Of a DNA stretch of 64,000 nt, positions 12,308-60,351 are shown piece by piece; the first letter of the stretch is position 1, and the number at the start of each line of letters is the position of its first letter. Under the pieces are notes generated by a model that had not been told where the DNA came from, ran no database searches, and worked only from the letters and a program-made list of their open reading frames with translations. Location: assembly GCA_018658715.1 (NCBI GenBank), contig JABHUQ010000028.1, positions 5,663 to 69,662 of the forward strand. The letters run 5' to 3'. The translations under genes and the position numbers were made by a program. The DNA is from Fidelibacterota bacterium (GTDB taxonomy: Bacteria > Fidelibacterota > Marinisomatia > Marinisomatales > UBA1611).

Positions 12308-15300
12308 ATGAACATTAATCATTTTCATATTGTTCTTGGAGGAAACAGGACATTTATAAGAATTGCTTTATTCTTCAGCTTGGTATGCTCATTGCTAGTT
12401 GGACAAATAATCCCTGTCAGTAACATAAATAATGTCACCATTAATAAGTGGGTTGTCGTTAAAGATGAAAATTTTAATAAAGACAAATTAAACCTACTTA
12501 TTAAAGACCCCGCCAAATTTATTACAGCATCAGAGCAAACAGTAACAGTTGACCTAGGAACTGTAAAAGACTCCCCTATCCAAGTCTATCAATTATTTAA
12601 AAACTTCACACATACTTCATCAATTGCTGCTATAACAAGAGTTGATTTACCTTCTGAACAAGACGTTGCTATAGGCTTTGGTAATTTTGATTTAGATGCT
12701 TCTATCTATATAAATGGTAATTTAGTCATGTCTGAAAATAATAGAGACGATTCTAATTTTAAAGTTCAATTCAAAAAAGGAGAAAATGACATAATTATCA
12801 CAGGGAATGTTATTGGCGGAAATAGGATGCCTAGTTTTTTCGCACGGTTTTATGGAGAACAAAGAGGCGAGATTGAAGGAACTATCCTAGATGCGAAAAA
12901 TAAACCGGTACCATTTGCGACAATAGATTTTAAAAGCGAATATATTAATATGACTTCACAATCTGATAAAAATGGTAAATATAACCTATGGGTATATCCT
13001 AATTATGGAAATTATACGATTGAAGCATCCAAAAATAATTATTATGGTCACTCTGAAGATGTGTATGTAAAAGAGTTTGGTAGATATAATATAGATATTA
13101 AGCTTATCAATACATCATCTATCTCCGGGACTGTATTTACAATGGATAAAAAAACACCGCATCCTGGTGTTGTGGTCCAACTAGAAAATATTGTCGATCA
13201 AAAAATAATTCAGACAAATATTACAGATCAAACAGGTAAATATACATTTACACCACCAATAGGGAAGTATAAAATTCGACTTTTTGCGAATAATACATAT
13301 ATCTATAAAAAGAATAATAAGAATGAAAATGATATTATTAACCTTACGAGCAAGGGACATAAATACGAACGAGATTTTTTCATTCAAAATCAAAATAGAG
13401 GATCTTGGAATAGTATTGGCATGTTTGATGGTATGCTGAGTATGGCAGTTCATATTACATTACTTTCTAGTGAAGACATTCTATACACAGGAACTTATAA
13501 TGGATTATCTGTTTATGATGGATTATCGGTCAAGACATACAATTATGATCATGACCTTCCAAATAGTCCTATATTCGATGTTTTTGAAGATAATGAAGGA
13601 TTCATATGGCTGGCCTTTGCATCTAAAGGAATTGTAAAATGGAAATCAGGAAGAGTGATCCAACATTATACTATTGATGATGGCCTTGTATCAAATCATG
13701 TAAACACAATTGATCAAGATAAAGACGGAAATTTACTCATTGGTACTCAAGAAGGGTTATCCATTTTTGATGGTGAAAAGTTTACAAACTATAATTTTAC
13801 TCATGGAATAGGAAATGGATTTATTACTGATATTGAAGTCGTGGGTAAAAATATATGGATTGGAACGGGTGCTTTAGGGAAAGCAGGAACTTTTCGTACA
13901 TATGGAGGAGGCTTAACACTATATAATGGCAAAACATTTAAATCGTTCGATTTAACTCCATTCACAGGAATTGATTTAAATATAGCAGTTATTAATTGTA
14001 TAAAAGAGTATGATGGAACTATTTGGATAGGCACTTTGGGCGGTTTATTAAAATATGATGGTTCAAAATTTCATATGTACACAAAATCAGATGGTCTTCC
14101 TTCGAATAATATTAATGATATTCTTATTGATAATAATGGTATTTGGATATGTACTAATAGTGGTTTAGCCAATTTTAATAATGGGGGATTTAAAGTCATT
14201 ACAACGCTTGATGTGAAATCGGATGGATTAACTGGGCTTTATGGGACAACTGCGATCTCAAAATCACGGGATGGTATTTATTTTATTGGCGGACAGGGTG
14301 TTAGCTTGTACGATCCTAATTCACTAAAAACTATTTCTGCTTATGATGGAATGCCGGTGCCCAACAATTGGACAAATGGAATATCAGATATAGAACTAGG
14401 CAAAGATGGGTACCTTTGGGTTACTTCAGGTTGGAATGGTATATATAAATTGAGTGGCGAAGTAATAATAGAAAATTATAATATCAATAATAGTAAAATT
14501 CCTGCTAATAGGACGATTGCTATATCATTTGCTAATGATGGTTCAATGTGGGGTGCACATGGTAATGCTGGGGTTTCAAGATTTATAAATGGCGAATTTG
14601 AGAATATGACTGACAAGCTTAATATTCCTGCTAATACTATAATTACTGATATCGCTTTTGATGAACAAGGCACACTATGGTTAGCTACAAACCGTGGTTT
14701 AGCAAAATATAAAAATGATACATTAACTATTTTTGATGAAAAAGATGGACTTATAATGCCAAAAAGGAATTGTGATATTAATATTGGACTGAATGGAGAA
14801 ATTATATACAGTACTTACGGCTCGGGTATATCGATTTATGATGGAGAAACATTTAAAAATTATGACGAATCAAATGGCCTGGTTGATAATAGAATATGGG
14901 ACTTAACAGTTGATTCAAAAAATAATATTTGGATGGCTACGGACGGATCTGGCGTTCAGATGTTTGATGGCGCCACTTTTGTTCATCACTCTGTAAATGA
15001 TGGAGTAACGGCTGGTGAAACATTTTCTATTTATGCGGATGATTTTGATAATATTTGGGTGGGTACTTTTGGAGGTGGTGTTTGCTTTTATGATGGGAAT
15101 GTTTGGAGTAGTGTTGATACTAGAGATGGATTGCTACAGGATTTAATTGGGTCCATAGAAGGAATTGATGGGAATAAATTTTGGTTTGGAAGTGAAAATG
15201 GGATTACTGTTTATGAGCCAAAAAGACAAACACCTTATGCATATATAGAACAAATAAAAACGCCAAACGGAAATTATAATACATTGGAAATAAACTTACT

Positions 15301-17257
15301 TAGAGTTGATGATTTACTTGAAAAATCTCGTATCTCTTTTACATTTAATTCAAATAGCTATAATACTCGAAAAGAAAAACAAAAATATATTATTCATATC
15401 AAAGGAAATGGGCAAAAAGAGACACATCTAATAAAAACAAATGAATTTGAATATTTTCCTAATAAATCTGGAGAGTATACTATAGAATTTCAATCCATTG
15501 ATCGTGATTTAAACTATTCACCTCTGAATAGGGTCCAATTGGGAGTTATTGGACCGTGGTATAAAAATCCAGCAACAGCAATCCCATTTTGGGGATTTAT
15601 TATAATTATATTATTATTTTCAGGCTTTACGAGTAATAAATATTTAAAGCAAAAACAATATTCAATGGCCTTAAAAGATGCTTCTCAGAAAAAAGACAGA
15701 AAAACTCGAAAACATTTAGAAGAAAAAAATACTGAGTTAGTCGAGTCTCAAAAAGCAGCAGAAGCTGCTAATGAAGCAAAGAGTACTTTTCTTGCAAATA
15801 TGAGTCATGAGCTCCGTACGCCTTTAAATGCAATTATTGGCTATAGTGAAATGTTAATGGAAGATGCTGAAGACGAGAATGAAGAATTTATTCCTGACCT
15901 TGATAAAATTAATAATTCAGGTAAACATTTATTGGGTCTCATAAATGATATTCTTGATTTATCGAAAGTAGAATCAGGAAAAATGGAACTCTTTTTAGAA
16001 GAATTCAACTTATCTAAGATTATGGACGAAATTGAATCTACTATTTTGCCTATGGTGGAGAAAAATAATAACTCACTCAAGATTAATATAAAATCAGATA
16101 CAAAAACCATTGTGGCGGATATAACAAAAATTCGTCAAATCATACTTAATTTATTGAGTAATTCATCAAAGTTCACAAAAGATGGTACCATATCAATTAA
16201 TGTAGTTGAATCAAATAGCCAAGATGATTCCATTGATTTTATTATTGCAGATACAGGTATCGGAATGTCTCAAGACCAAGTTGAAAAAGTATTCATGCCT
16301 TTTACGCAAGCTGATGAAAAAACAACTAGAAAGTTTGGCGGAACGGGTTTGGGACTCACTATTACAAAAATGTTTGCAGAAATGATGGGCGGTGATATAG
16401 CTCTTTCATCTGTAGAAGGTGAGGGGACTACTTTTATTGTAACTATTCCAAGATGTGTTGTTGATCCAAAAAAAGAATCATCTGAAATATTGCCTGTAGA
16501 TTTGAGTGAGTCTGATTTTACCATATTGGTAATTGATGATGATGATAATGCTCAAGGCTTGATGAAGAAATTTTTGAATAAACAGGGTTATTCCATTATT
16601 CAGGCTCTTTCGGGAAAAGACGGAATAAAGTTAGCAAATGAACAACACCCCGACCTTATTACATTAGATGTGATGATGCCTGAAATGGATGGGTGGGAAG
16701 TTTTAGCTGAATTACAAGCTAATGATTTAACTAAAAATATTCCTGTTATAATGTTATCTATGGCAGATGAACCCGATATTGGATTCTCTTTAGGGGCCAC
16801 AGATTATTTAACAAAACCAATTAATTGGAGCAGATTATCTGATGTTTTGGGCAAATATCATATTGATGCTACAACAGATGCTATATTAATTGTTGAAGAT
16901 GATAAAATTACACGAGATATGCTACGGAAAAGCCTTGAGAGTAATGAATACAAGGTTAGAACGGCTATTAATGGAAAAAAAGGACTTGAAGCAATTGAAG
17001 TGTCTAAACCAAGTCTCATAATTTTAGATTTAATGATGCCTGAAATGGATGGTTTTGAGTTTGCTGAAAAATTACGTGAAAATAAAGAATGGCTTGATAT
17101 CCCTGTTGTAGTAGTCACTGCAAAAGATCTTACTAAGGATGATCATAAGAGGTTAAAAGGCAATGTGGAGGCTATTATGCAGAAAGGGTCTTATAGTAAA
17201 AATGATTTATTGTCCGAAGTCGGTGAAAAAATTAACAAATTAAAAACAGGGAGTTAG
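12308..17257 (+). CDS. Hybrid sensor histidine kinase with a large extracytoplasmic sensor (CarboxypepD_reg-like, regulator-propeller and Y_Y_Y-like domains), HisKA/HATPase and two receiver domains
   Basis: 1649 aa. It has repeated propeller motifs (GL..F/YDG..F..Y) and a TM segment (IPFWGFIIIILLFSGF). The H-box is MSHELRTPLNAIIGYSEML and the G-boxes are DTGIGM and GGTGLGL. Both REC domains carry DVMMPEMDG/DLMMPEMDG. Confidence 0.9.
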   Translation: MNINHFHIVLGGNRTFIRIALFFSLVCSLLVGQIIPVSNINNVTINKWVVVKDENFNKDKLNLLIKDPAKFITASEQTVTVDLGTVKDSPIQVYQLFKNFTHTSSIAAITRVDLPSEQDVAIGFGNFDLDASIYINGNLVMSENNRDDSNFKVQFKKGENDIIITGNVIGGNRMPSFFARFYGEQRGEIEGTILDAKNKPVPFATIDFKSEYINMTSQSDKNGKYNLWVYPNYGNYTIEASKNNYYGHSEDVYVKEFGRYNIDIKLINTSSISGTVFTMDKKTPHPGVVVQLENIVDQKIIQTNITDQTGKYTFTPPIGKYKIRLFANNTYIYKKNNKNENDIINLTSKGHKYERDFFIQNQNRGSWNSIGMFDGMLSMAVHITLLSSEDILYTGTYNGLSVYDGLSVKTYNYDHDLPNSPIFDVFEDNEGFIWLAFASKGIVKWKSGRVIQHYTIDDGLVSNHVNTIDQDKDGNLLIGTQEGLSIFDGEKFTNYNFTHGIGNGFITDIEVVGKNIWIGTGALGKAGTFRTYGGGLTLYNGKTFKSFDLTPFTGIDLNIAVINCIKEYDGTIWIGTLGGLLKYDGSKFHMYTKSDGLPSNNINDILIDNNGIWICTNSGLANFNNGGFKVITTLDVKSDGLTGLYGTTAISKSRDGIYFIGGQGVSLYDPNSLKTISAYDGMPVPNNWTNGISDIELGKDGYLWVTSGWNGIYKLSGEVIIENYNINNSKIPANRTIAISFANDGSMWGAHGNAGVSRFINGEFENMTDKLNIPANTIITDIAFDEQGTLWLATNRGLAKYKNDTLTIFDEKDGLIMPKRNCDINIGLNGEIIYSTYGSGISIYDGETFKNYDESNGLVDNRIWDLTVDSKNNIWMATDGSGVQMFDGATFVHHSVNDGVTAGETFSIYADDFDNIWVGTFGGGVCFYDGNVWSSVDTRDGLLQDLIGSIEGIDGNKFWFGSENGITVYEPKRQTPYAYIEQIKTPNGNYNTLEINLLRVDDLLEKSRISFTFNSNSYNTRKEKQKYIIHIKGNGQKETHLIKTNEFEYFPNKSGEYTIEFQSIDRDLNYSPLNRVQLGVIGPWYKNPATAIPFWGFIIIILLFSGFTSNKYLKQKQYSMALKDASQKKDRKTRKHLEEKNTELVESQKAAEAANEAKSTFLANMSHELRTPLNAIIGYSEMLMEDAEDENEEFIPDLDKINNSGKHLLGLINDILDLSKVESGKMELFLEEFNLSKIMDEIESTILPMVEKNNNSLKINIKSDTKTIVADITKIRQIILNLLSNSSKFTKDGTISINVVESNSQDDSIDFIIADTGIGMSQDQVEKVFMPFTQADEKTTRKFGGTGLGLTITKMFAEMMGGDIALSSVEGEGTTFIVTIPRCVVDPKKESSEILPVDLSESDFTILVIDDDDNAQGLMKKFLNKQGYSIIQALSGKDGIKLANEQHPDLITLDVMMPEMDGWEVLAELQANDLTKNIPVIMLSMADEPDIGFSLGATDYLTKPINWSRLSDVLGKYHIDATTDAILIVEDDKITRDMLRKSLESNEYKVRTAINGKKGLEAIEVSKPSLIILDLMMPEMDGFEFAEKLRENKEWLDIPVVVVTAKDLTKDDHKRLKGNVEAIMQKGSYSKNDLLSEVGEKINKLKTGS

Positions 17258-17637: not shown

Positions 17638-19221
17638 TTGGTTAATGAACGCATAAAAAAAGCCTTTTTAGGGAAGGCAAGACATAACTTAAAAAATCCA
17701 GTAAATGCCATTATTGGCTATAGTGAAATGCTCCTAGAAGATTGCGAAGAATCAGGAAATGAGAATTTATTAATTGATTTAAATAGTTTATTATTAGCAG
17801 GAAATGAAATTTTAAACCACATTGAAAATCAATTAAGTGACAACAGAATTAATAAAATTGAACATTCTGTTGTACAAATGGGCAAAGATGCTGAAATTGC
17901 TATACGTACTCCATTAAATACAATTATTGGTGTTTCAGAACTATTGTTAGAAGATGAGTTTGACCATATTGTTAGTACTTTTTCTAGTGATATGAAAAAC
18001 ATCAATGATTCGGGTCAAATGCTTATCCAGGAATTAAAATCCATTATTGATTTCAAAATATCTGATTTAGAAGAAATCAGAAACCAAAATTTGAATGTAG
18101 GCAATTTATCGATGGTAAAGGATGTATTAGACAGTATACAGCCATTGGAATCAGCCGATTATAAAAAAATGGTAATTGGTCAAATTTTAGTTGTTGACGA
18201 TAATATAAATAACACAGAATTGCTTAAAAAAAGGCTTGAAAAACAAGGACATGAAATAATAATTGCAAATAACGGGAGGGAAGCACTTATTCATTTGATG
18301 ACAAAAGACAAATCACTGGATTTAATGCTTTTAGATATTGTTATGCCGGAAATGAATGGATATGAAGTATTAAAATTTATTCGTAATGATAAGCGATTTC
18401 ATGAATTACCAGTCATAATGATCTCATCTATGGATGATACAGACAGTATATATCGTTGTATAGAAATTGGAGCTGATGACTATATTCAAAAGCCGTTTAA
18501 TCAAGCTGTACTAAATGCGCGAATCAGCAGTTGTATAGAGAGAAAACAATTAAGAGACAAAGAAATTACTTTAATTTCGAAACTAAACATAGAAAGAGAA
18601 AAATCTGAAAATTTACTTTTAAATATGTTACCAAATAGTGTCGCTTCAAGATTAAAAGCAGGTGAAACAGATATTGCAACTAAACATGATGAAGTAACTG
18701 TAGTATTTGCTGATATTGTAGAATTTACACCCCAAACCCAAGAAATGAATCCAAGTATGGTCGTTCATATACTTAATAATATATTTACTTCCTTTGATAA
18801 ATTAGCTCAACAATTTAATGTTGAAAAAATTAAGACAATTGGAGATAGTTATTTCGCAGTTGGTGGTTTGAATTCGAATAACCAAAAACAATCAGCTATT
18901 AATGTTATTGAAATGGCCAAAGAAATGCTTAATGTATTAGTAATTTTAAACAAAGAAACAAAAGAAATGAAATTAGTACTAAGAATTGGCGTTCATACAG
19001 GACCAGCTGTGTCCGGAGTCATTGGCAGAAATAAGTTTGCTTATGACGTTTGGGGTGCTACAATTAATATGGCCAATCGATTAGAAACGACATGCGTAAA
19101 TGGGAAAATACATATTTCCAAAAAAACAAAAGAATTATTAGGTAGCCGATATAGCTATATAAAATGTAAAGACACAGAAATAAAGGGAATTGGACTAAAA
19201 ACAACCTATATTATTAAATAA
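17638..19221 (+). CDS. Receiver-domain class III adenylate cyclase with two N-terminal DHp (HisKA-like) helices and no ATPase domain
   Basis: 527 aa. The N-terminus has ARHNLKNPVNAIIGYSEML (His retained) and a second copy, IRTPLNTIIGVSELL, with the His lost. The REC domain has LLDIVMPEMNG. The cyclase motifs are VVFADIVEFT, KTIGDSYFAVGG, YDVWG and NMANRLE. The start is a TTG. Confidence 0.85.
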   Translation: MVNERIKKAFLGKARHNLKNPVNAIIGYSEMLLEDCEESGNENLLIDLNSLLLAGNEILNHIENQLSDNRINKIEHSVVQMGKDAEIAIRTPLNTIIGVSELLLEDEFDHIVSTFSSDMKNINDSGQMLIQELKSIIDFKISDLEEIRNQNLNVGNLSMVKDVLDSIQPLESADYKKMVIGQILVVDDNINNTELLKKRLEKQGHEIIIANNGREALIHLMTKDKSLDLMLLDIVMPEMNGYEVLKFIRNDKRFHELPVIMISSMDDTDSIYRCIEIGADDYIQKPFNQAVLNARISSCIERKQLRDKEITLISKLNIEREKSENLLLNMLPNSVASRLKAGETDIATKHDEVTVVFADIVEFTPQTQEMNPSMVVHILNNIFTSFDKLAQQFNVEKIKTIGDSYFAVGGLNSNNQKQSAINVIEMAKEMLNVLVILNKETKEMKLVLRIGVHTGPAVSGVIGRNKFAYDVWGATINMANRLETTCVNGKIHISKKTKELLGSRYSYIKCKDTEIKGIGLKTTYIIK

Positions 19222-22806: not shown

Positions 22807-23739
22807 TCAGTTTAAAGAGATGCTGGGAAAATATTTTATTTTTGGTCCACCCTTTTGAAATTTCACTGTTATTGCGTCCAATTGTATGTCACATTCTATA
22901 TTTTGTTCCTTTTGGTAGAATTGAATCGCATCATATAAATGGTTCAATTTTGTTCGTGTAAATTTTTCTAATAGATGATTTTCAGAATCTTTTAGCCCAG
23001 ATTTAACTTCGATAAAATGAATACAATTATTTAATTTTGCTATAATATCAATTTCGCCGTGTGGATGACAATTCTTATTTAATTCTATAATAGTAAATCC
23101 TTTATCTCTTAAATATAGTGCAGACATTTTTTCTCCAAGCCATCCTACTTTTTTATTTTCATGTATCCATGATAGCGTTGGTAACCATTTTTTAACTGGT
23201 GAAAAAGATTTTCGATGAATAGGTGTTGATTTATAAGTTGCTAAAGCATCCATATGTTGTTTTGTACCATATCCTTTATGTTTCTCAAAACCATATTCAG
23301 GAAAAATAATAGCATATTCTTTCATCAAATTATCTCTTGTTACTTTTGCTATAATACTGGCTGCTTTGATTTCATCTACTAAATCATCTCCTCCTACAAT
23401 TCCTTCATTAGGAATTACTTGATTTGGTAATGGTGTTCCATCAATTAAAGCTTTAGTAGGTTTCTGCGATAAATGCCCAAGTGCAATCTGCATTGCTTTG
23501 AATGTTGCTTGCAGAATGTTGATTTTATCAATTTCTTTACAACCAATTATACCAACTCCAATTGAAATTGCTTCTTTTTGAATAATGTCATATAAAAGCG
23601 ATCTTTTTTTTGGTGTTAATTTCTTGGAATCACGCAATCCTTCAATTGTGTGGTCCTTGGGTAAAATAACAGCTGAAGCTACTACGGGACCAGCTAATGG
23701 TCCGCGACCTGCTTCATCTACTCCAGCAATTATTTCCAT
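22807..23739 (-). CDS. rnhB: RNase HII fused to a YraN/UPF0102-type (PD-(D/E)xK) endonuclease domain
   Basis: Residues 1 to about 192 match RNase HII (GVDEAGRGPLAGPVV, DSKKL, HRKSF). Residues from about 198 to 310 match YraN (GEKMSALYLRDKGF..GEIDIIAK..IHFIEVKS). Confidence 0.85.
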   Translation of the reverse strand: MEIIAGVDEAGRGPLAGPVVASAVILPKDHTIEGLRDSKKLTPKKRSLLYDIIQKEAISIGVGIIGCKEIDKINILQATFKAMQIALGHLSQKPTKALIDGTPLPNQVIPNEGIVGGDDLVDEIKAASIIAKVTRDNLMKEYAIIFPEYGFEKHKGYGTKQHMDALATYKSTPIHRKSFSPVKKWLPTLSWIHENKKVGWLGEKMSALYLRDKGFTIIELNKNCHPHGEIDIIAKLNNCIHFIEVKSGLKDSENHLLEKFTRTKLNHLYDAIQFYQKEQNIECDIQLDAITVKFQKGGPKIKYFPSISLN

Positions 23740-29314: not shown

Positions 29315-30391
29315 TTATTCAGAATCTAAATTTGTCAAATAGTCAACCACCCCACTTGTTTCAGATCGATAAATACAACGACCCATTTTGGATGATATTT
29401 GATAGTCATATAATCGATCGTAATAAAGGGTCAGTAAATCATGTATCCAATCATAATGTGAGTGAGATTTAGGATCTAAAAATGCATTATCAATCTTTGT
29501 GCGAATACTCATAAATAATTCATGCCCTAGTCTTTTCTGAATTTTAAATAATGATGAACGAAGGGATAAAAGTAAATCTGTCTTTGGTACGCCTACATTT
29601 AAAGGTTTATCAATATATTCTATTTGTATATTCTGAATACGTTCTTCTAGGGGAATATCAATTAAAACCCATTTTGATAATCGCATACGTCCATACCAAC
29701 TATTAGGAATAGCAACACGTCCAATGGTACGAGATTCATCTTCCAAAAATAATGTATTGCCACTATGGTTTAGATAATGAATAGCTAAAGAATGTTCGAA
29801 ATTAATTTGTGATGGTTGTGCTGAATCTGTTTTCCCGAATGCAGACCCACGATGATTTGCTAATTCTTCCAAGTCGATGGTAGAAATCAATCGATTCAAA
29901 ATATTGGTTTTCCCTGTCCCTGTTTTTCCGCCCAAAATAATCCATTTTTTATTATCATTTTCTGCTGAATCCAATATGTTAATAGCGGTATTTCTTAAAA
30001 GTTTATAACCACCCGAAATCCTTTTAACATTTAATCCCCTGTCTCGAAGCCAAGTTTGAGCAATCTTTGATCGTAATCCACCTCGTGCGCAATAGATCCT
30101 TGTCGTTGGGTGATCTTGGATAAAATCTATCCACGTATGAATTCGAATTTCTTTAATCTCGTTGGAAACTAATTTATGACCCATCTTTATTGCAGCATCT
30201 TTTCCTTGATGCTTATATGTTTTGCCTACTCGTGCACGCTCATCATCCTTCAATATGGGGAAGTTAACACTTTGTGGAAATGCCCCTTTTTTGAATTCCC
30301 CAGGAGATCGTAAATCAATTAATGGAATCTTTTCTTTAAGAATTTGATAATATGGGGATATTCTATCCATGAGAGGATTGAAATTATTCAA
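29315..30391 (-). CDS. selU: tRNA 2-selenouridine synthase
   Basis: Rhodanese active site YCARGGLRS, Walker A GGKTGTGKT, and HRGSAFG and EDESR motifs. The protein is collinear with E. coli YbbB/MnmH. Confidence 0.9.
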   Translation of the reverse strand: MNNFNPLMDRISPYYQILKEKIPLIDLRSPGEFKKGAFPQSVNFPILKDDERARVGKTYKHQGKDAAIKMGHKLVSNEIKEIRIHTWIDFIQDHPTTRIYCARGGLRSKIAQTWLRDRGLNVKRISGGYKLLRNTAINILDSAENDNKKWIILGGKTGTGKTNILNRLISTIDLEELANHRGSAFGKTDSAQPSQINFEHSLAIHYLNHSGNTLFLEDESRTIGRVAIPNSWYGRMRLSKWVLIDIPLEERIQNIQIEYIDKPLNVGVPKTDLLLSLRSSLFKIQKRLGHELFMSIRTKIDNAFLDPKSHSHYDWIHDLLTLYYDRLYDYQISSKMGRCIYRSETSGVVDYLTNLDSE

Positions 30392-30444
30392 TTTATTGTA
30401 TATGGTAGTCGTTTTTAAATAAAAGGGTCAATGCATAAGACAGG

Positions 30445-30521
30445 TGGTACGCCCGGGAGGATTCGAACCCCCAACCTTCTGGTCCGTAGCCAGACACTCT
30501 ATCCAGTTGAGCTACGGGCGC
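30445..30521 (-). tRNA. tRNA-Arg (anticodon ACG), CCA encoded
   Basis: Manual cloverleaf. The acceptor is GCGCCCG/CGGGCGT, the anticodon loop is CTACGGA, the T-arm is GGTTCGAATCC, and the 3' end is ACCA. Confidence 0.9.
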
Positions 30522-30606
30522 ATATCTTAATTTGTATCAAAACAATAAAATAAGTTGCCAAAAAAAGCCCGAGAATTTATTAGAAGAATTTCCCGAGTTC
30601 AACCGT

Positions 30607-32397
30607 CTATTTTAATAATAGTGCTTTTTTTGTATCAAATCCATTCGGTGTTTGAATTTGGATAAAATACATACCTGATGCATGCGATGATGCATCCCAT
30701 TGAAATGAATGATCACCAGCTTGTATGAGTGATTTATCTGCTAATACTTCTACTTCTTCGCCTAAAGTATTATAGACAGCAACTTTTCCTTTAGTATCAA
30801 ATGGTATTGAGAAGGAAATAGATAATACAGGATTGAATGGATTTGGGGTCAAATTCCATATTTCTGGACGAGATGCTAAAGCAATAGATATAGCTTCTGT
30901 CTTATCTAGGCGTTTCATATTTATTTCTTGTCCAAATTCATTACTTACGACTAAATCTTTTAAATCTATCGCATGAATAGAAGAAGCCACATCGAAAGAT
31001 ATAGATTCTATAGCATTTGTCCCTGTTTCATCAAATGCTAAATAAGTAATTCGTCCATGTTTTATCATTGAATGCAAAGACCAACCTTCAGGAAGTATTA
31101 ATCGATTATTTAAATTGTAAGATTCGGGAATTGAAAATTGAAAACCAGAAATCATTTCCACACTAGATATTGTAGCAACTTTCTCTAATCCATTTTGCTG
31201 TACGCTTAAAATGCCATCAAGTGGTTGCCCCCCAGGTGAAATACCACTCCATGTATTATTCATAATTCCTTGTACAAGAGTAACAATATCAATTACGTTT
31301 ATTATTTCATCACCATTCATATTTGCAACATCAACGTGGCATCCCATTGATTCTTCAGTTAGAATAAAATCAACTAAAAACAAAACATCAAAAACATTAA
31401 TGACAGGATTTCCATTTACATCTGTATCACCATTAAGATTACCTGTTACATAAACATTATTATTGCACGGGTCACATTCGTTGCCAATAAGATCATTATC
31501 TTCATCATCCTGAGATGGATTATAATCTTGGGGACAGTTGTCTACCCAATTCATGACACCGTCATCATCAACATCAGGATTCATATCATCTATATATACA
31601 TCAGAAACTTGTAATATTTGTTTTGTTGTATTGTTCTGTACAATAGCAATTATTTTAACATTATCTTGAACCCAGCTATCGGATAATGTAAAAGAGCCAT
31701 TGAACGTTTCAGTCTCTCCTGAAGATGAAATATTGACTGAATTAGGGTCTTCCCAGATTCGAGCAACATTTCTAGCATTATGCCATTGACTAGCGGAAGA
31801 CCAATAAGAATATATTTCATCTTCTACAATAAATACATGAACAATATCATTTGAAGATGGATGGTCTGAATCCAAGGAAATAGTTATGTCGTAAGTCACA
31901 TCATTATCAAGTATCATACCATTAATTTGAATTTCATAAGGTGTTTCATCACCCAACATCGAATTAAATATTGGTAGAAAAGTATTATACATTGGCTCCC
32001 AATTACCACTGGGATATCCACCAACAGTATTTTGAACTCCATTCCATTGAGTATGAGGTATTCCCCCTACTCCATAATAACCTGATCTTTGACTATATTC
32101 AGATGGGAGATCAAAATCTGAGCTCCCAGGGGTATAACTAGGGCTATGCCATTCAACGCTAAAAAGTGTTTCTGGGAATTCGTTTAATAAAGTATCTATC
32201 GCAAAACTTGCGCTTGGACAATATGGTCATTGAAGACCAGTAAAATCTTCTACAAAAACACGTTGAGATGATCTTGCAGCATTTTCTACAATTTCTCTTA
32301 AGTTATTGATGGGAACTTCTTGATTATTAACAAGAATTGTTTGCTCAGCCAACATAAATGATATGGCTGCAATCATAAATAGAATTATTTTTTTCAT
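30607..32397 (-). CDS. Secreted thioredoxin-fold protein with an in-frame TGA (candidate Sec, UxxC), TSP3/dockerin-like Ca-binding repeats and a T9SS C-terminal sorting domain
   Basis: The frame is open from the ATG at 32397 to the stop at 30607 except for the TGA at 32227..32229. The ATG has an AAGGGGGA SD and encodes the signal peptide MKKIILFMIAAISFMLA. The TGA context is FTGLQ-TGA-PYCP. The C-terminus (NPFNPVLSISF...SGMYFIQIQ...KKALLLK) is a typical Por secretion tail. The ORF track only called 30607..31992. Confidence 0.65.
32200..32212 (-). promoter_or_regulatory. Small hairpin 14 nt 3' of the in-frame UGA (candidate bacterial SECIS apical stem-loop)
   Basis: The mRNA reads CGCAA-GUU-UUGCG, a 5-bp stem with a G/U-containing loop, with imperfect flanking pairing. 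It is weak on its own. Confidence 0.3.
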
Positions 32398-32459
32398 AAT
32401 AGGAATCCCCCTTGTTTACTTAACTAAAATTGTGAAAGAAATTAGATGGTATATGCATT

Positions 32460-34259
32460 TTAAAACAAGGATGTTAATTCCAGTTTAAAACCATCTGTAA
32501 ATGGTTCTATCTTACGGCATACTCCATTACTGCAAAGGAGTCCACCCTTTTGGCTGCCGTACATCAATGAAAGTCTATGACTTGAATTAATGTTATACAC
32601 AAACTCAATGGCTGCCCAAGTATTTTCTAAACTCATAAAATTTCCAAGAAATGTTTCAAAGAATGTTTCAGTATCAATGGCATATGGATCAAATGTATCA
32701 TCATAAGATACGCGATCAAATAATAGAGCAACGGACCAAGTTGGAGCATTCCCTAAACCAATCGAAAAGAAATGATTATACTGTTTTGGCCGTTCAGTAT
32801 GAACATCTGTTTCATAATCGTAAGAGTCAAAATCTGATTTTAGACTATCATATTTTACAATACTTGATGAGTCAGAATAACTCCACGTTCCACGTAATAA
32901 TTCCTGATATTCCCATTTAATATTAATATTGATTCCATTAGAAAGATAATATGAGAAAGAAGTGGGAATCGTAAGTGCTTCTTGATATTTATACTCCAAT
33001 AAATGATTATGCTCGTCATACTTGTTTGTAAAAATATCTGTTACGTCTTTGGTATTTGCGCCAGAAATAACATAGTGTAACCTGTCGCTAAAAGCATAAC
33101 CATTTAGCTCTAAATATAATTCTTGATAAGGTAAACCCTCAGCCGATTTAATAGGTAGCCAAGAATCATTATTCGTTTTAAACCATGTATAGTCTGGTCT
33201 GGACTCCCAAATATGGGTTCGACTGGAAGTAGCATAATGAAGAAATAATGTAGTCCCGAATATACCCGGACCTGTTAAATCTAATTGGTACCCTAAATTA
33301 TTATTGAAATCAAATTGGTGTGATATTCGTCCAAGCAATGATGTAGAATGGAGCAAATTCGAAATAGCTGGTTGTTGATAATCTAAAGCTAACCCATAAT
33401 TATTAATAAAATCCCAACGAGTAAATGCGTCAGGTGCAAGATGCGCAAAACTATAACGAATATAATCTGCAGATAAAGTCCAATCTTGGAGAAAAGAAGT
33501 TATATTTGCATAAAACCCGCTTCCGCTTCTAGCGAAATCTAAATCATTATATCCAGCAGATTGTTTATCAGCATATTCAAGGAAGAGCTCAAAATTGGGA
33601 CCTGTGTAAGTAACCCGCCCTCCTAATATTCGATGTACTACATGGACTGTATCTGGGAAATTCCAAGATGGTAACGTATGTTTTTCTCTCGATTGTAAAT
33701 AGGAAAGACCCATTTCGAAGGAATCACGATACCAATCAATATTTGTTCCCATGACTGAATGATTCGTTTCATAATTATGTGAATAATTGTTAAAGCCAGA
33801 ATAAGTAGGTGATGATTTCCATAGTGTGGAATAGCCAGTTAATAAATTCCATTGAATATTATTCTTATCTAATGAAAAGTATAAGCCACGAATGCCATTA
33901 TCAAAATCAACTGATTGATCTTCATTCTGATTTAATACAAGACCCCTTCCCCATATTTCATAAATATCACCAAGTTTTAATGATATTGGACCATCCGAAT
34001 AATCAAAGCGTATTTTTCGTAAACCATCTTGATAAAATCCTAACTCGGGTGGTTTACTAAATTCGAATTGTGACCAAATAGTAAACTTATCGAGACGAAT
34101 ATTTGTATTAATCAAAGATTCTGAATAATTAAACCCAGTTTTACTTTCGCCATATCTTAACTGACTACTACCTGAGAATTTAATTTGTGCAGAAAGGATA
34201 GATGATATAATAATAAATAAAAAGGAATAAAGAATAATTGTACTATTAATTATTTTCAT
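32460..34259 (-). CDS. Putative outer-membrane beta-barrel protein
   Basis: 599 aa with a signal peptide and aromatic-rich alternating strands. The C-terminal residue is Phe (ELTSLF). The start abuts the TlpA stop. Confidence 0.5.
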   Translation of the reverse strand: MKIINSTIILYSFLFIIISSILSAQIKFSGSSQLRYGESKTGFNYSESLINTNIRLDKFTIWSQFEFSKPPELGFYQDGLRKIRFDYSDGPISLKLGDIYEIWGRGLVLNQNEDQSVDFDNGIRGLYFSLDKNNIQWNLLTGYSTLWKSSPTYSGFNNYSHNYETNHSVMGTNIDWYRDSFEMGLSYLQSREKHTLPSWNFPDTVHVVHRILGGRVTYTGPNFELFLEYADKQSAGYNDLDFARSGSGFYANITSFLQDWTLSADYIRYSFAHLAPDAFTRWDFINNYGLALDYQQPAISNLLHSTSLLGRISHQFDFNNNLGYQLDLTGPGIFGTTLFLHYATSSRTHIWESRPDYTWFKTNNDSWLPIKSAEGLPYQELYLELNGYAFSDRLHYVISGANTKDVTDIFTNKYDEHNHLLEYKYQEALTIPTSFSYYLSNGININIKWEYQELLRGTWSYSDSSSIVKYDSLKSDFDSYDYETDVHTERPKQYNHFFSIGLGNAPTWSVALLFDRVSYDDTFDPYAIDTETFFETFLGNFMSLENTWAAIEFVYNINSSHRLSLMYGSQKGGLLCSNGVCRKIEPFTDGFKLELTSLF

Positions 34260-34756
34260 TATTGCATTAATAAAGATTTAATTCGTTCTTCAACTACGAT
34301 TTCATCACCTGGAATATATCCTTGATGACGCCAAGCAATTGTCCCATCTTTATTAATAAGAATCATGGTTGGTAGTAAAACAGCATTAAATATTTTCGAT
34401 ATTTGTTTATTAGGATCAACTCCAACTTTAAACGAATAATTTTTTGATCGAATATATCCTTTAACCTTGGATAAACTTTTAGGAGAATCTTGATTAATAG
34501 TTAATACATTAAACCCTGAGTCTTGATAAGCTTTATGAAAATTATCTTGATGTAACATCGCCTTTTTACATGGACCGCACCATGTTGCCCAAAAATCAAG
34601 TAAAACAGGTCCTTCTTCAAGTAACTCGTACAATGATATCCGCTCCCCTGAAAGAAGCTTAACTTTAAAGTCTGGTACTTTCTCAACATTCACAGTGGTT
34701 GCGAATGTGAATGAAATCGCTAAAATGTATGCGATTCCAGCAAAATATTTTTTCAC
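34259..34756 (-). CDS. TlpA/ResA-family periplasmic thiol:disulfide oxidoreductase
   Basis: 165 aa with a signal peptide and a thioredoxin motif, LLDFWATWCGPCKK. Confidence 0.88.
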   Translation of the reverse strand: MKKYFAGIAYILAISFTFATTVNVEKVPDFKVKLLSGERISLYELLEEGPVLLDFWATWCGPCKKAMLHQDNFHKAYQDSGFNVLTINQDSPKSLSKVKGYIRSKNYSFKVGVDPNKQISKIFNAVLLPTMILINKDGTIAWRHQGYIPGDEIVVEERIKSLLMQ

Positions 34757-34772
34757 ATTGAACTCGTATTAT

Positions 34773-36074
34773 TTATAAAATTGGATCTAAAAACCTTCTT
34801 AGATCTAACTCATTAACGAACTTAATTGTGACATTACTCAAATTTTCTACCGCATTAACGGGTAATGTAAATTCATAGGTAATGGGAATTGTAACAGTTT
34901 CCATTGCTATTTGCATAGACCAACCGCCCATTGTGAAATTAATCAACGGAGAAAATTGGTGGCTAGGAATATAAAGGACTTTTGAACTAGAACGAGAATG
35001 CCAATATGAATCAGGTGTATCTGTGAGAACAACAGATGGGTTTCTGGATTTATCAAAAAATTGAATGACAGGTATTTTTCGATAGGTTTCAGAAATAATA
35101 TCATCGATTAAATATTGCGGAAAGTTGAATTTATCCCTACTATAATAAAATACAGTTAAGCTACCGTCTTCTTGCAACCCTGTATAAGGAAGAGTAGTTA
35201 GCATTTCATGAATAATATTTTCCTTCAAGGAGTATTCCACCTTAAACTGAACCGTAATAAGTTGTTCGTCATCTTCATGATAAATAAAATTAGGTCGTTC
35301 CAGTTTAACTTGATAGGGATTAGAAATTAATTGGTCTAATACAGTTTCCAATAGAGCTGAGTTTTGATCATTCTCAGGATTAACATCAACCTTTTGCTCA
35401 GCCGTAAAGTCCATTGACCATTCTCCAACAGATTGTTGTACAGTTTTTTTCTTTTTTGCGTCTTCTTCCCTTTTCTTAGCACCTAAAACAAAATCCATGC
35501 TTGCTTCCAATTCAAGGATTGCAGCATCTAATGAACTGGCGACTCTTTCAGATTCAATAGAAACTTTTGGTGGAAGTATTTTTTGTGGTCTAACGGAAAT
35601 ATCCGGGAAAGGAGATTTAGCTTTATCTACTTGTTTTGGTAAGTAATCAGCCAACATTCCTTGGACAGTTGCTCCTACTTGATCTTTTAATGTCGGAAGA
35701 GCAGAATAAAAGCCAGAAGCAGATTTGTTCCCAACTTCTTCCCATGTAGCAATATCAATTAATTGCATAGTTACAGATATGTCATCAAGCTTCCTATTGA
35801 ATTTCCCAAGTAATAATAAATTATTTGATCCACGAGGTTGCTTCAATAATTCAGAACGATTATTCATAATATATTCTAAATCATCATTATTTTGAATTCG
35901 TAATGTTGACTCATTCTTTAATTTATCTTTGACAATTTCGGATAAACCGGGTCCAATCCATTCAACAGAAGCATCATTTTGCACATTGTCAAATGGAAGT
36001 AGGTAGAAATACACAAGAGGGTCCCGTGCAAATAGTGTTGACAATAAAAGAAGATGTATTAAGATTTTGTTCAT
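34773..36074 (-). CDS. Hypothetical exported protein
   Basis: 433 aa with a signal peptide. The N-terminal LLPFDNV...WIGPGLSE resembles TolB-N/CsgG-like lipoprotein modules. The assignment is weak. Confidence 0.4.
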   Translation of the reverse strand: MNKILIHLLLLSTLFARDPLVYFYLLPFDNVQNDASVEWIGPGLSEIVKDKLKNESTLRIQNNDDLEYIMNNRSELLKQPRGSNNLLLLGKFNRKLDDISVTMQLIDIATWEEVGNKSASGFYSALPTLKDQVGATVQGMLADYLPKQVDKAKSPFPDISVRPQKILPPKVSIESERVASSLDAAILELEASMDFVLGAKKREEDAKKKKTVQQSVGEWSMDFTAEQKVDVNPENDQNSALLETVLDQLISNPYQVKLERPNFIYHEDDEQLITVQFKVEYSLKENIIHEMLTTLPYTGLQEDGSLTVFYYSRDKFNFPQYLIDDIISETYRKIPVIQFFDKSRNPSVVLTDTPDSYWHSRSSSKVLYIPSHQFSPLINFTMGGWSMQIAMETVTIPITYEFTLPVNAVENLSNVTIKFVNELDLRRFLDPIL

Positions 36075-39247: not shown

Positions 39248-39258
39248 TTATAAATTTG

Positions 39259-39347
39259 CGGAGGCGGTAGGATTCGAACCTACGAGGGGCGCGAACCCCT
39301 GCTGGTTTTCAAGACCAGTGCATTCAGCCAGACTCTGCCACACCTCC
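39259..39347 (-). tRNA. tRNA-Ser (anticodon UGA), long variable arm, no encoded CCA
   Basis: Manual fold. The acceptor is GGAGGTG/CGCCTCC, the anticodon loop is CTTGAAA, the variable arm is GGGGTTCGCGCCCC, and the T-arm is GGTTCGAATCC. Confidence 0.88.
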
Positions 39348-39361
39348 ATTTTGTTTATTTG

Positions 39362-39451
39362 CGGAGAGGGAGGGATTCGAACCCTCGAAGAGGCTATAAA
39401 CCCCTTACTCACTTAGCAGGCGAGCGCCTTCAGCCACTCGGCCACCTCTCC
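39362..39451 (-). tRNA. tRNA-Ser (anticodon GCU), long variable arm, no encoded CCA
   Basis: Manual fold. The acceptor is GGAGAGG/CCTCTCC, the anticodon loop is CTGCTAA, and the T-arm is GGTTCGAATCC. Confidence 0.88.
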
Positions 39452-60338: not shown

Positions 60339-60351
60339 ATTTTGATAAAAA

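What the first reader, a model, noticed from the sequence alone, without database searches (positions are those of the whole stretch)
29315..36074. Co-oriented cluster linking selenium use, periplasmic thiol redox and an outer-membrane barrel
The minus strand carries, in order:
- a 433-aa exported hypothetical protein
- a TlpA-type thioredoxin (CxxC)
- a 599-aa putative outer-membrane barrel, whose start abuts the TlpA stop
- the UxxC candidate selenoprotein with a T9SS tail
- tRNA-Arg
- selU

A periplasmic reductant (TlpA), a barrel and a surface-exported Sec-thioredoxin sit together, next to the only selenium enzyme in the window. This suggests an envelope or extracellular redox relay. That functional link is my inference. 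Only the gene order and the motifs are observed.
Basis: inference. Interest (0 to 1): 0.55.

Follow-up and report, generated by a model that had tools for sequence, protein, structure and literature searches.

The report
Marinimicrobial envelope selenoprotein redox module
Four neighbouring genes stay together across the marine phylum Marinimicrobia: a TolB-like periplasmic protein, a TlpA reductase, a large outer-membrane barrel and an exported selenocysteine thioredoxin-fold protein. This points to a cell-surface redox system with an unknown substrate; the adjacent selenouridine gene selU is there by coincidence.

Summary
The gene order and motifs are real. The UxxC protein (30607-32397, minus strand) belongs to a known selenoprotein family of unknown function, NCBIfam NF045500 'Omp28-related selenoprotein', which is 'hypothetical protein GOS_C' of 2008. 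The barrel is DUF6029, modelled as a large plug-less beta-barrel with an invariant Cys pair. The 433-aa protein has a TolB-N/PelC/FlgO-like N-domain.

In 79 species-level Marinimicrobia loci:
- TlpA sits just upstream of DUF6029 in 70 of 75 cases.
- The 433-aa gene lies upstream of TlpA in 58 of 67.
- The gene after DUF6029 is an exported thioredoxin-fold protein with an in-frame UGA (UxxC) in 63 of 71, and CxxC in 6 more.

The TlpA-barrel-UxxC trio is also duplicated as a unit in some genomes. It recurs in a Cys version beside a 24%-identical barrel in a different gene context. So the functional link of the trio is well supported.

The link to selU is not. selU was found in none of the 89 related loci, and tRNA-Arg is the conserved boundary.

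A relay of reducing power from periplasmic TlpA to a surface selenoprotein through or at the barrel remains inference. The conserved module was not found in the searchable literature.

The parts
34773..36074 (-). 433-aa exported protein (h433). N-domain (about residues 20-145) has a TolB-N/PelC/FlgO-like fold. Residues 150-235 are a low-confidence linker. The C-domain (236-433) has no known fold.
   Evidence: ORF. No Pfam or NCBIfam hit. AF2 model pLDDT 66, N-domain about 80-88. Foldseek hits to PelC 5t11 (E 8e-6), the TolB N-domain, CsgG and FlgT. Distant relatives carry Pfam FlgO/TolB_N/LpoB. Found upstream of TlpA in 58 of 67 loci.
34259..34756 (-). TlpA/ResA-type periplasmic thiol:disulfide oxidoreductase (WCGPC), with a GTG start 16 nt after the h433 stop
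   Evidence: Pfam AhpC-TSA, Redoxin and Thioredoxin_8. NCBIfam ResA subfamily 87.7 bits, below its cut-off. Junction sequence. Found within 400 bp upstream of DUF6029 in 70 of 75 loci.
32460..34259 (-). DUF6029 outer-membrane beta-barrel (599 aa), plug-less, about 24-26 strands. Its start overlaps the TlpA stop by 1 nt. Invariant C576 and C581 (codons 32532-32534 and 32517-32519) lie in a hairpin before the last strand.
   Evidence: PF19494, 82 bits. AF2 pLDDT 87, pTM 0.82. Foldseek gives only generic large barrels (TonB-dependent transporters, MtrB, FimD; TM about 0.4). Invariant columns.
30607..32397 (-). Omp28-related (GOS_C) thioredoxin-fold selenoprotein, 596 aa. Architecture: signal peptide, UxxC Trx-like/Omp28 domain, TSP3 + dockerin-like Ca-binding modules, T9SS C-terminal sorting domain.
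   Evidence: NF045500, 535 bits against a cut-off of 200, profile positions 5-377 of 377. Pfam Omp28, TSP_3, Dockerin_1, Por_Secre_tail. Translation through the TGA. Cys-containing homologues align C to U.
32227..32229 (-). In-frame TGA read as selenocysteine (U57 of U-P-Y-C)
   Evidence: The same position is TGA in more than 60 related genes and Cys in others. TGA is otherwise a stop in this window.
32200..32212 (-). SECIS-like hairpin (GCGCAAGUUUUGCGA core), 17-29 nt after the first base of the UGA
   Evidence: Fold: (weak in the window itself, z -0.9). In 29 distinct relatives all 145 pair cells are paired, and 2 of 5 pairs change on both sides at synonymous sites; 0 of 500 shuffles reach the score. 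Other subfamilies carry different GC-rich hairpins at the same place (z -2.8 to -4.05).
31273..31581 (-). TSP type-3 repeat and dockerin-like Ca-binding modules of the selenoprotein (aa 273-375)
   Evidence: Pfam TSP_3 (aa 273-296) and Dockerin_1 (aa 325-375), both below their gathering scores. The same modules recur in the related selenoproteins.
30622..30846 (-). T9SS type A C-terminal sorting domain (aa 518-592)
   Evidence: PF18962 and TIGR04183, both above cut-off. A PorV-family gene and a T9SS-dependent M6-like protein lie in the same window.
30445..30521 (-). tRNA-Arg(ACG). It is the conserved downstream boundary of the module, not a functional part of it.
   Evidence: tRNA-Arg(ACG) follows the selenoprotein gene in L005, L011, L012, L018, L058 and L061. 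ARAGORN found 49 tRNA-Arg genes among the related loci.
29315..30391 (-). selU/mnmH (tRNA 2-selenouridine synthase). It is adjacent here only and is not part of the module.
   Evidence: NF008751, 381 bits. No tblastn hit in any of 89 related loci.

Best explanation
h433, TlpA, DUF6029 and the UxxC selenoprotein form one conserved envelope module, and probably one transcription unit.

Shown:
- The four genes are co-oriented and tightly packed.
- They are conserved as a set across Marinimicrobia.
- The last gene encodes a thioredoxin-fold protein. Its first active-site residue is selenocysteine, and it keeps the Trx-fold invariants, including the cis-Pro position.
- All four products carry export signals. 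The selenoprotein also carries Ca-binding dockerin/TSP3 modules and a T9SS sorting tail, so it is predicted to end up on the cell surface.

Inferred:
- TlpA is a periplasmic reductant, presumably fed by a CcdA/DsbD encoded elsewhere. It keeps or returns the U-x-x-C centre to the reduced state.
- The plug-less DUF6029 barrel is the outer-membrane partner, with the TolB-N/PelC-like h433 beneath it. It holds the selenoprotein at the membrane or gives TlpA access to it. Its invariant extracellular or lumenal Cys pair is a possible contact point.
- The displayed selenoprotein reduces or isomerises an external disulfide-, polysulfide- or peroxide-type substrate. Sec gives it reactivity and resistance to over-oxidation outside the cell.

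selU is an unrelated neighbour beyond the tRNA-Arg boundary.
For: Conservation of the neighbourhood
- Packing in the window: gaps are 16 nt, a 1-nt overlap and 62 nt, with no terminator-like site in the intergenic gaps between the four genes.
- In 79 species-level loci, TlpA precedes DUF6029 in 70 of 75 and h433 precedes TlpA in 58 of 67.
- The gene after DUF6029 is a UxxC Trx-fold gene in 63 of 71 and a CxxC version in 6 of 71.

Arguments that this is more than inherited synteny
- A second TlpA-DUF6029-UxxC copy lies elsewhere in the same genomes, without GluRS, GlnRS or h433 (L008, L059, L067, L075, L088, L089).
- A 24%-identical DUF6029 in a different gene context keeps an overlapping TlpA and an Omp28/DUF1223 + T9SS-tail protein with a CxxC motif.
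- The downstream gene switches between two different Trx-fold families (Omp28/GOS_C type and AhpC/redoxin type). It stays UxxC + TSP3/dockerin, often with a T9SS tail.

Evidence for selenocysteine
- NF045500 scores 535 bits. This family is GOS_C.
- Cys homologues align to the U position.
- The hairpin after the UGA covaries.
- TGA is otherwise a stop codon in the window.

Other points
- Trx-fold invariants are E50, T53, U57, C60, R104, Y108 and P114.
- Barrel model: pLDDT 87, no plug.
- The h433 N-domain resembles PelC, TolB-N and CsgG.
- T9SS components are present in the window.
Against: - No experiment or expression data exists. Localisation is predicted only.
- Thiol-disulfide exchange needs protein contact, and no precedent is known to me for such exchange through an outer-membrane barrel.
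- T9SS cargo does not need a DUF6029 barrel for export.
- No CcdA/DsbD gene was seen near any module.
- Synteny within one phylum also keeps GluRS and GlnRS next to the module. This shows that part of the conservation is plain vertical inheritance.
- h433 is absent from the duplicated modules and from the distant locus.
- The barrel's Cys pair may be a purely structural staple.
- The window's own hairpin is thermodynamically weak (z -0.9). Cys-form paralogues also show hairpins at the same position.
- The Sec machinery (selA, selB, selD, tRNA-Sec) was not seen, because only 64 kb of the genome is available.
Confidence: 0.45

Rival explanations
1. Export and maturation model. DUF6029, with h433 as a periplasmic ring or adaptor, is a dedicated outer-membrane translocon or anchor for the neighbouring Trx-fold selenoproteins. 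This would resemble Slam with surface lipoproteins, or PelC-PelB. TlpA acts only once, in the periplasm, keeping the Sec/Cys pair reduced or correctly paired before export. No continuous electron relay exists.
For: - The barrel gene sits next to its putative cargo gene in 69 of 71 loci.
- The h433 N-domain matches PelC, which forms a ring under the PelB barrel, and also CsgG.
- Many cargo paralogues lack a T9SS tail and end in a dockerin-like module, so they would need another route or anchor.
- TlpA/ResA/CcmG-type proteins are known maturation reductants (established knowledge).
Against: - The window's protein, and many orthologues, carry a bona fide T9SS sorting domain, which already provides export.
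- A one-shot maturation role would leave a surface oxidoreductase with no way to recycle.
- h433 is missing from the duplicated modules.
Confidence: 0.25
2. Import model. The barrel is a porin for an oxidised sulfur, selenium or organic disulfide substrate. The substrate is captured or pre-processed by the Trx-fold selenoprotein and then reduced further by TlpA in the periplasm. The proteins share a substrate rather than passing electrons to each other.
For: - The barrel is large, has no plug domain and lacks the N-terminal region where TonB-dependent transporters carry their plug and TonB box.
- The three genes co-occur.
- The downstream partner is interchangeable between two Trx-fold families. 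This fits a shared chemistry rather than a specific docking interface.
Against: - No transporter, reductase or assimilation genes for such a substrate are conserved nearby.
- A barrel of this size without a plug would be a very leaky pore unless something occupies it.
- The invariant Cys hairpin and the N-terminal motifs suggest a protein partner.
Confidence: 0.12
3. Synteny without shared function. The genes are neighbours only because gene order is conserved by descent in Marinimicrobia, as it is for GluRS and GlnRS next door.
For: GluRS-GlnRS-h433-TlpA-DUF6029-selenoprotein-tRNA-Arg is syntenic as a whole in most loci. Some of the conservation is therefore not functional.
Against: - The trio is duplicated as a unit at second sites.
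- The trio recurs beside a 24%-identical barrel in another context.
- TlpA and DUF6029 overlap, stop on start, in both the window and L091.
- Family switching of the downstream gene preserves the UxxC, export and Ca-module features.
Confidence: 0.06
4. Polysaccharide export porin. DUF6029 (Wzi-barrel-like) with a PelC-like h433 exports a surface polymer. TlpA and the selenoprotein are unrelated passengers.
For: - One paper notes HHpred similarity of plug-less Wzi-like barrels to DUF6029 and speculates on polysaccharide secretion (PMC9603273).
- The h433 N-domain matches PelC.
Against: - No OPX, Wzx/Wzy, glycosyltransferase or Pel genes are present in the window's module or in the related loci.
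- This model does not explain the TlpA-barrel translational coupling or the near-universal UxxC neighbour.
Confidence: 0.05
5. selU and the selenoprotein module form a selenium-utilisation island, co-located for shared regulation or selenium supply.
For: Both depend on selenophosphate (established knowledge), and they are adjacent in this window.
Against: - selU gave no hit in any of 89 related loci with up to 10 kb flanks.
- tRNA-Arg separates the two genes.
- 82%-identical relatives carry DUF6577 and AbiEii genes after tRNA-Arg instead of selU.
Confidence: 0.03

Closest known systems
Hypothetical protein GOS_C, which is NCBIfam NF045500 'Omp28-related selenoprotein' (Zhang & Gladyshev 2008, PMC2398784; listed in the 2026 review PMC13188914)
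   Same: Full-length match far above the cut-off, a UxxC motif in a Trx-like fold, and Sec/Cys pairs in homologues.
   Different: As a family member, nothing differs. The papers found give no function or gene context. The conserved TlpA/DUF6029/h433 neighbourhood and the T9SS/dockerin display modules are what this analysis adds.
TlpA / ResA / CcmG (DsbE) periplasmic reductant pathways fed by CcdA/DsbD
   Same: A membrane-anchored or periplasmic Trx-fold WCxPC protein encoded next to its presumed client.
   Different: The known clients are apocytochrome c, Sco and CoxB. Here the conserved neighbours are an outer-membrane barrel and an exported selenoprotein. No cytochrome-maturation genes, cox genes or CcdA are nearby, and the equivalog cut-offs are not reached.
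MtrCAB / PioAB porin-cytochrome conduits
   Same: The logic is the same: a periplasmic redox protein, a large plug-less barrel and a surface redox protein, all encoded together. MtrB is among the fold hits (6r2q_B).
   Different: There are no haem motifs. The chemistry would be thiol/selenol exchange, not haem electron hopping. The fold similarity is generic (TM about 0.44) and there is no sequence relationship.
PelC-PelB (and CsgG, TolB-N, LpoB, FlgO-type modules)
   Same: The h433 N-domain has this fold, and distant relatives are Pfam FlgO/TolB_N/LpoB. PelC forms a ring under a barrel.
   Different: h433 has no lipobox Cys, carries an extra 200-aa C-domain of unknown fold, and has no Pel genes around it. 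Oligomerisation was not tested.
Porphyromonas gingivalis Omp28 family (PF11551, NF033782 lipoprotein)
   Same: Weak Pfam and NCBIfam similarity over the domain that follows the Trx-like part.
   Different: The scores are below both cut-offs. There is no lipoprotein signal, and the protein has Sec, a dockerin-like module and a T9SS tail.
Slam (DUF560) with neighbouring surface lipoproteins; LptD-LptE
   Same: An outer-membrane barrel encoded beside the surface protein it handles or houses.
   Different: No sequence or fold relationship was shown. These are offered as analogies only.

Membership tests
NF045500 Omp28-related selenoprotein (GOS_C) | Whole-domain HMM score above the curated cut-off | tested here: met
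   535.2 bits against 200, profile positions 5-377 of 377.
NF045500 Omp28-related selenoprotein (GOS_C) | In-frame UGA at the first position of a UxxC redox motif, with Cys in homologues | tested here: met
   FTGLQ-U-PYC at 32229-32227. Cys forms read FTGLD-C-PYC. More than 60 related genes have UGA at this site.
NF045500 Omp28-related selenoprotein (GOS_C) | Bacterial SECIS-type hairpin shortly after the UGA | tested here: met
   The hairpin lies 17-29 nt after the first base of the UGA. Pairing is 100% in 29 distinct sequences, with 2 of 5 pairs compensatory. It is weak in the window itself (z -0.9).
NF045500 Omp28-related selenoprotein (GOS_C) | Genome encodes the Sec-insertion machinery (selA, selB, selD, tRNA-Sec) | not testable with these tools
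   None was found in the 64-kb window or in the related loci. The rest of the genome is not available. selU implies that selD is present.
Omp28 outer-membrane lipoprotein (NF033782 / PF11551) | Score above the cut-off and a lipoprotein signal peptide | tested here: not met
   53 bits against 150 and 30.3 against 34.9. The N-terminus MKKIILFMIAAISFMLA-EQT has no lipobox Cys.
TlpA/ResA-type thiol:disulfide oxidoreductase | Trx fold with a WCxPC motif and an N-terminal export or anchor segment | tested here: met
   Pfam AhpC-TSA, Redoxin and Thioredoxin_8. WCGPC motif and a hydrophobic N-terminus. The specific equivalogs are not reached: ResA 87.7 against 170 and TlpA 44.8 against 230.
DUF6029 (PF19494) | HMM score above the gathering score; beta-barrel architecture | tested here: met
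   82.2 bits against 27, profile positions 56-538 of 538. The AF2 model is all-beta: pLDDT 87, pTM 0.82.
T9SS type A cargo | C-terminal sorting domain, and T9SS components in the genome | tested here: met
   PF18962 36.2 against 27 and TIGR04183 35.9 against 23. A PorV-family protein and a T9SS-dependent M6-like protein are in the window.
TonB-dependent transporter | N-terminal plug domain and TonB box | tested here: not met
   The barrel strands start at residue 26 with no globular N-domain. No TBDT Pfam or NCBIfam hit was found. Foldseek TM is only about 0.4.
MtrB/PioB porin of porin-cytochrome conduits | Sequence family membership and a neighbouring multihaem cytochrome | tested here: not met
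   No family hit. There are no cytochrome genes in the module. Only a generic fold hit was found.
PelC | Lipoprotein, about 150 aa, encoded in a pel operon | tested here: not met
   The similarity is at fold level and covers the N-domain only (E 8e-6, TMt about 0.5). h433 has no lipobox, is 433 aa long, and has no pel genes nearby.
SelU / MnmH | Equivalog HMM score above the cut-off; rhodanese domain | tested here: met
   NF008751 381.3 against 361 and TIGR03167 309.8 against 219.75. Rhodanese domain.

The most novel reading that the evidence does not exclude
This would be a thiol/selenol counterpart of the Mtr porin-cytochrome conduit. Periplasmic TlpA passes reducing equivalents through the lumen of the 24-26-stranded DUF6029 barrel, or via its invariant Cys pair. 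The recipients are T9SS- or dockerin-displayed UxxC selenoproteins. Marinimicrobia would thereby gain an extracellular reductase for disulfides, polysulfides or peroxides. It would be the first case I know of (from my own knowledge and the papers searched) of a bacterial cell-surface selenoenzyme system and of trans-outer-membrane disulfide exchange.
Probability: 0.2. Interest if true: 0.85.

Novelty: new variant of a known kind. Interest (0 to 1): 0.6.

Why it matters
GOS_C is a recurrent marine selenoprotein family: 74 Sec sequences in the GOS data alone (PMC2398784). It has had no function since 2008.

Marinimicrobia (SAR406) are, from general knowledge, abundant in the dark ocean and in oxygen-minimum zones. 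Here the family turns out to be the variable end of a core module conserved across that phylum. The module combines a periplasmic reductant, a dedicated large outer-membrane barrel and a TolB-like protein. The selenoproteins carry surface-display signals.

This gives the first testable functional frame: the redox partner is TlpA, the location is the cell surface, and the platform is DUF6029. It also gives DUF6029 a concrete context.

If the relay reading is right, it would be a new way to move reducing power across an outer membrane, and a sizeable extracellular use of selenium in the ocean.

There is also a practical point. GenBank MAG records annotate these genes only as truncated 'T9SS type A sorting domain-containing' proteins, so the catalytic domain is missing from their annotation.

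Tried and rejected
- **selU as part of the system.** Rejected: no selU in any of 89 related loci.
- **UGA as a true stop or a genome-wide sense codon.** Rejected: the reading frame is conserved across the UGA in more than 60 genes, Cys homologues exist, and TGA is used as a normal stop elsewhere.
- **Rfam at gathering thresholds.** It found only the three tRNAs and no curated SECIS or other RNA.
- **Hairpin stability as a Sec/Cys discriminator.** It failed. Mean z was about -1.5 for 60 Sec forms and about -1.4 for 5 Cys forms. I relied on covariation instead.
- **Sequence searches of PDB.** The barrel, h433 and the Omp28-like domain gave nothing useful.
- **Foldseek for the barrel.** It gave only generic large-barrel hits with TM about 0.4, so no specific family can be named.
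- **The h433 C-domain.** No match was found.
- **Promoter and terminator consensus scans.** They were no better than shuffled sequence. The region after the selenoprotein gene folds only weakly.
- **Literature searches.** Omp28 + selenoprotein returned nothing. Marinimicrobia or SAR406 + selenocysteine/selenoprotein and T9SS + selenoprotein + thioredoxin-like turned up no paper describing such a module. DUF6029 found only a speculative polysaccharide-porin remark.
- **tRNA-Sec.** It was looked for in the window and in all loci held; none was found.
- **My first tblastn with the selenoprotein.** It used a wrong frame (the OmpSel_N rows) and should be ignored. It was redone with a read-through HMM search.

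Full report
**Observation**

The minus strand between 29.3 and 36.1 kb carries six features in this order:
- a 433-aa ORF (34773-36074, called h433 here);
- a 165-aa redoxin (34259-34756);
- a 599-aa ORF (32460-34259);
- a split reading frame that becomes one 596-aa protein if the TGA at 32229-32227 is read through (30607-32397);
- tRNA-Arg(ACG) (30445-30521);
- a 358-aa ORF (29315-30391).

The family assignments are clear.
- The last ORF is SelU/MnmH (NF008751, 381 bits against a cut-off of 361).
- The redoxin is TlpA/ResA-like with WCGPC.
- The 599-aa protein is Pfam DUF6029 (82 bits against 27).
- The read-through protein matches NCBIfam NF045500 'Omp28-related selenoprotein' over the whole model (535 bits against 200). 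It ends in a T9SS type A sorting domain.

The TlpA stop and the DUF6029 start overlap by one base (TAATG). The other gaps are 16 nt and 62 nt. No terminator-like site falls in these gaps.

None of the other long ORFs in the window is a SelA, SelB or SelD. TGA ends five ordinary genes in the window, so the in-frame TGA is a local event.

**Organism**

Named homologues and all 79 loci recovered from the species-representative genome collection are Marinimicrobia, also called Neomarinimicrobiota, Fidelibacterota or SAR406. The window has 33% G+C.

**Is the UGA selenocysteine?**

Four lines of evidence agree.
1. The family is curated as a selenoprotein (NF045500). The 2026 review of prokaryotic selenoproteomes equates that model with 'hypothetical protein GOS_C', a Trx-like-fold UxxC family found in the Global Ocean Sampling data in 2008.
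2. Homologues with Cys at the same position exist (FTGLD-C-PYC).
3. A read-through six-frame HMM search shows the N-terminal part in frame with the rest, across the TGA, in more than 60 related genes.
4. A hairpin follows the UGA at a fixed distance.
   - In 29 distinct sequences of the UPYC subfamily all 145 pair cells are paired.
   - Two of five pairs change on both sides, and the changes are at synonymous third positions (Ser UCC/UCU with Ala GCG/GCA; Ala GCG/GCA with Phe UUC/UUU).
   - No shuffle of 500 reaches the covariation score.
   - Other subfamilies have different, stronger GC-rich hairpins at the same place (z -2.8 to -4.05).

Three caveats apply. The window's own hairpin is weak (z -0.9). 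Five Cys-form paralogues also fold there. The Sec machinery could not be looked for beyond the window.

The invariant residues of the domain are E50, T53, U57, C60, R104, Y108 and P114. This is the pattern of an active thioredoxin-fold oxidoreductase with its cis-Pro (the reading as cis-Pro is my inference from Trx-fold knowledge).

Contigs carrying relatives of the selenoprotein at 83%, 44% and 41% identity all show GluRS-GlnRS-h433-TlpA-DUF6029-selenoprotein.

A scan of one genome per species with a DUF6029 alignment gave 213 relatives, and 79 loci were kept. Among these:
- TlpA lies within 400 bp upstream of DUF6029 in 70 of 75 cases with sequence available.
- h433 lies upstream of TlpA in 58 of 67 cases. 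It is directly adjacent in 52. In at least some of the rest (for example L059, L067, L075, L078, L079, L086) an extra selenoprotein gene sits in between.
- Of 71 DUF6029 genes with at least 1 kb downstream, 63 are followed at once by an exported Trx-fold gene with an in-frame TGA in a UxxC motif, 6 by a CxxC version, and 2 by neither (I corrected the regex tally by hand for L039 and L081).

The downstream gene is of two unrelated Trx-fold types.
- One is Omp28/GOS_C-like, with motifs UPYC, UGPC or UPGC.
- The other is AhpC/redoxin-like, with LFTSW-U-PSC.

Both types carry TSP3 and dockerin-like modules, and many carry T9SS tails.

Some clades hold four to six such genes plus a second TlpA-DUF6029-UxxC module.

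**Is this more than inherited synteny?**

GluRS and GlnRS are just as syntenic, so conservation within one phylum is not enough by itself. Three observations go further.
1. The trio is duplicated as a unit at second sites that lack GluRS, GlnRS and h433 (L008, L059, L067, L075, L088, L089).
2. The only distant DUF6029 found (24% identity, unknown lineage, L091) sits in a different gene context. It is still preceded by an overlapping TlpA and followed by an Omp28/DUF1223 Trx-fold protein with FTNSH-C-PLC and a T9SS tail.
3. The downstream partner can be swapped between families while keeping the redox motif and the display modules.

I therefore take the functional coupling of TlpA, DUF6029 and the exported U/CxxC protein as well supported (about 0.85). 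The coupling of h433 is likely but weaker.

**selU**

selU gave no tblastn hit in any of the 89 related loci. tRNA-Arg(ACG) follows the selenoprotein gene in all six relatives checked individually, and ARAGORN found 49 tRNA-Arg genes in the loci overall. In the 82%-identical relatives, DUF6577, AbiEii and Amidoligase_2 genes follow it instead of selU. The selenium link is a coincidence of this lineage.

**The parts**

*DUF6029.* It models with high confidence (pLDDT 87, pTM 0.82) as an all-beta protein of about 24-26 strands that starts straight after the signal peptide. It has no plug. Foldseek finds only generic large barrels: TonB-dependent transporters, MtrB and the FimD usher, with TM about 0.4. 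There is no sequence relative in PDB.

Two cysteines (C576 and C581, in GGLLCSNGVCR) are invariant in 42 of 42 sequences, including the 24% relative. They sit in a short hairpin in the loop before the last strand. By the usual outer-membrane-protein topology rules that loop is extracellular or lumenal (inference).

*h433.* It models moderately (pLDDT 66). Its N-domain (residues 20-145) resembles PelC, the TolB N-domain, CsgG, FlgT and GNA1162. A profile search finds the same module repeated in giant TPR proteins and in kinases, where Pfam calls it FlgO, TolB_N or LpoB. Its C-domain has no match. It has no lipobox.

*T9SS.* The window also encodes a PorV-family protein and a T9SS-dependent M6-like protein, so the T9SS tail is meaningful.

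**Mechanism**

Shown: co-oriented, tightly packed, conserved genes; a Sec-containing Trx-fold active site; export and display signals.

Inferred: TlpA is the periplasmic reductant of the U-x-x-C centre. The plug-less barrel, with h433 beneath it, is the outer-membrane partner that houses, anchors or gives access to the selenoprotein. The displayed domain acts on an external oxidised substrate.

I put 0.45 on this overall picture. I put about 0.2 on the strongest form, a true trans-outer-membrane thiol/selenol relay analogous to MtrCAB.

The rivals are:
- a dedicated export or anchoring device, with TlpA as a one-shot maturation factor (0.25);
- a substrate-import porin that shares a substrate with both redox proteins (0.12);
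- synteny only (0.06);
- a polysaccharide porin, following the one published remark on DUF6029 (PMC9603273; 0.05);
- the selU-linked selenium island (0.03).

The points against the relay are these. No electron donor gene is nearby. There is no known precedent for disulfide exchange through a barrel. T9SS export does not depend on such a barrel. The Cys pair may be purely structural.

**Comparison with what is known, and novelty**

The selenoprotein is a member of a known but uncharacterised family. TlpA and DUF6029 are members of known families. What I could not find in the searchable literature is the conserved module itself, or any surface-displayed bacterial selenoprotein system.

I rate it a new variant of a known kind: a TlpA-type envelope thiol-redox pathway with an outer-membrane barrel and T9SS- or dockerin-displayed Sec clients.

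Interest is 0.6. The conservation result is strong and makes the function of GOS_C and DUF6029 directly testable, but the mechanism is still inference.

Noticed in passing
L001 11389-15497; L011 13814-17708 (relatives of window 29315-30521): In relatives 82% identical to the window (by DUF6029), the conserved tRNA-Arg(ACG) is followed by DUF6577, AbiEii and Amidoligase_2 genes instead of selU. This looks like a variable or island insertion site at the tRNA.
   Followed up: partly
L008 6110-20984 (also L059, L067, L075, L078, L086, L088): The TMED46-like clade has a 'selenoprotein island'. It holds four to six UxxC Trx-fold genes of two families, a Reg_prop/Y_Y_Y/SpoIIE regulator and a second TlpA-DUF6029-UxxC module.
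   Followed up: partly
window 32517-32534: Two cysteines of the DUF6029 barrel (C576, C581) are invariant in all 42 aligned relatives. They sit in a short hairpin before the last strand. Whether they are structural or redox-active is unknown.
   Followed up: partly
window 57597-61779: A PorV-family outer-membrane protein (60352-61779) lies next to a T9SS-dependent M6-like inactivated metalloprotease homologue (57597-60338). This shows the organism has a type IX secretion system.
   Followed up: no
window 22807-23739: RNase HII (residues 2-186) and a YraN-family domain (193-303) are fused in one 310-aa ORF.
   Followed up: no
window 4653-7811: A three-gene ABC transporter resembles GldA, GldF and GldG of gliding-motility systems. 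All three score below the equivalog cut-offs.
   Followed up: no
window 12308-17257: A very large (1649-aa) hybrid histidine kinase/response regulator. The next long ORF downstream (17638-19221) contains a response-regulator domain.
   Followed up: no
window 30607-31992, compared with GenBank MAG records: Public MAG annotations give only the 461-aa part after the UGA, named 'T9SS type A sorting domain-containing protein'. One metagenome gene call shows W at the position of the Sec codon, which looks like the UGA read as Trp. The catalytic Sec domain is therefore missing or wrong in the databases.
   Followed up: partly
L062 8086, L080 3171, L044 1655, L090 2668: Cys-form paralogues of the selenoprotein also have a hairpin at the SECIS position after the Cys codon. 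These may be fossil SECIS elements left by Sec-to-Cys conversions.
   Followed up: partly
window 39258-39451: Two tandem tRNA-Ser genes (TGA and GCT anticodons) lie upstream of GluRS. The pair is conserved in close relatives (L011, L012) and marks the other end of the syntenic block.
   Followed up: no
P0413, P0429, P0466, P0493 (relatives of the h433 N-domain): The TolB-N/FlgO-like module of h433 recurs up to seven times in giant TPR proteins and is fused to Ser/Thr kinases in other metagenomic proteins.
   Followed up: partly
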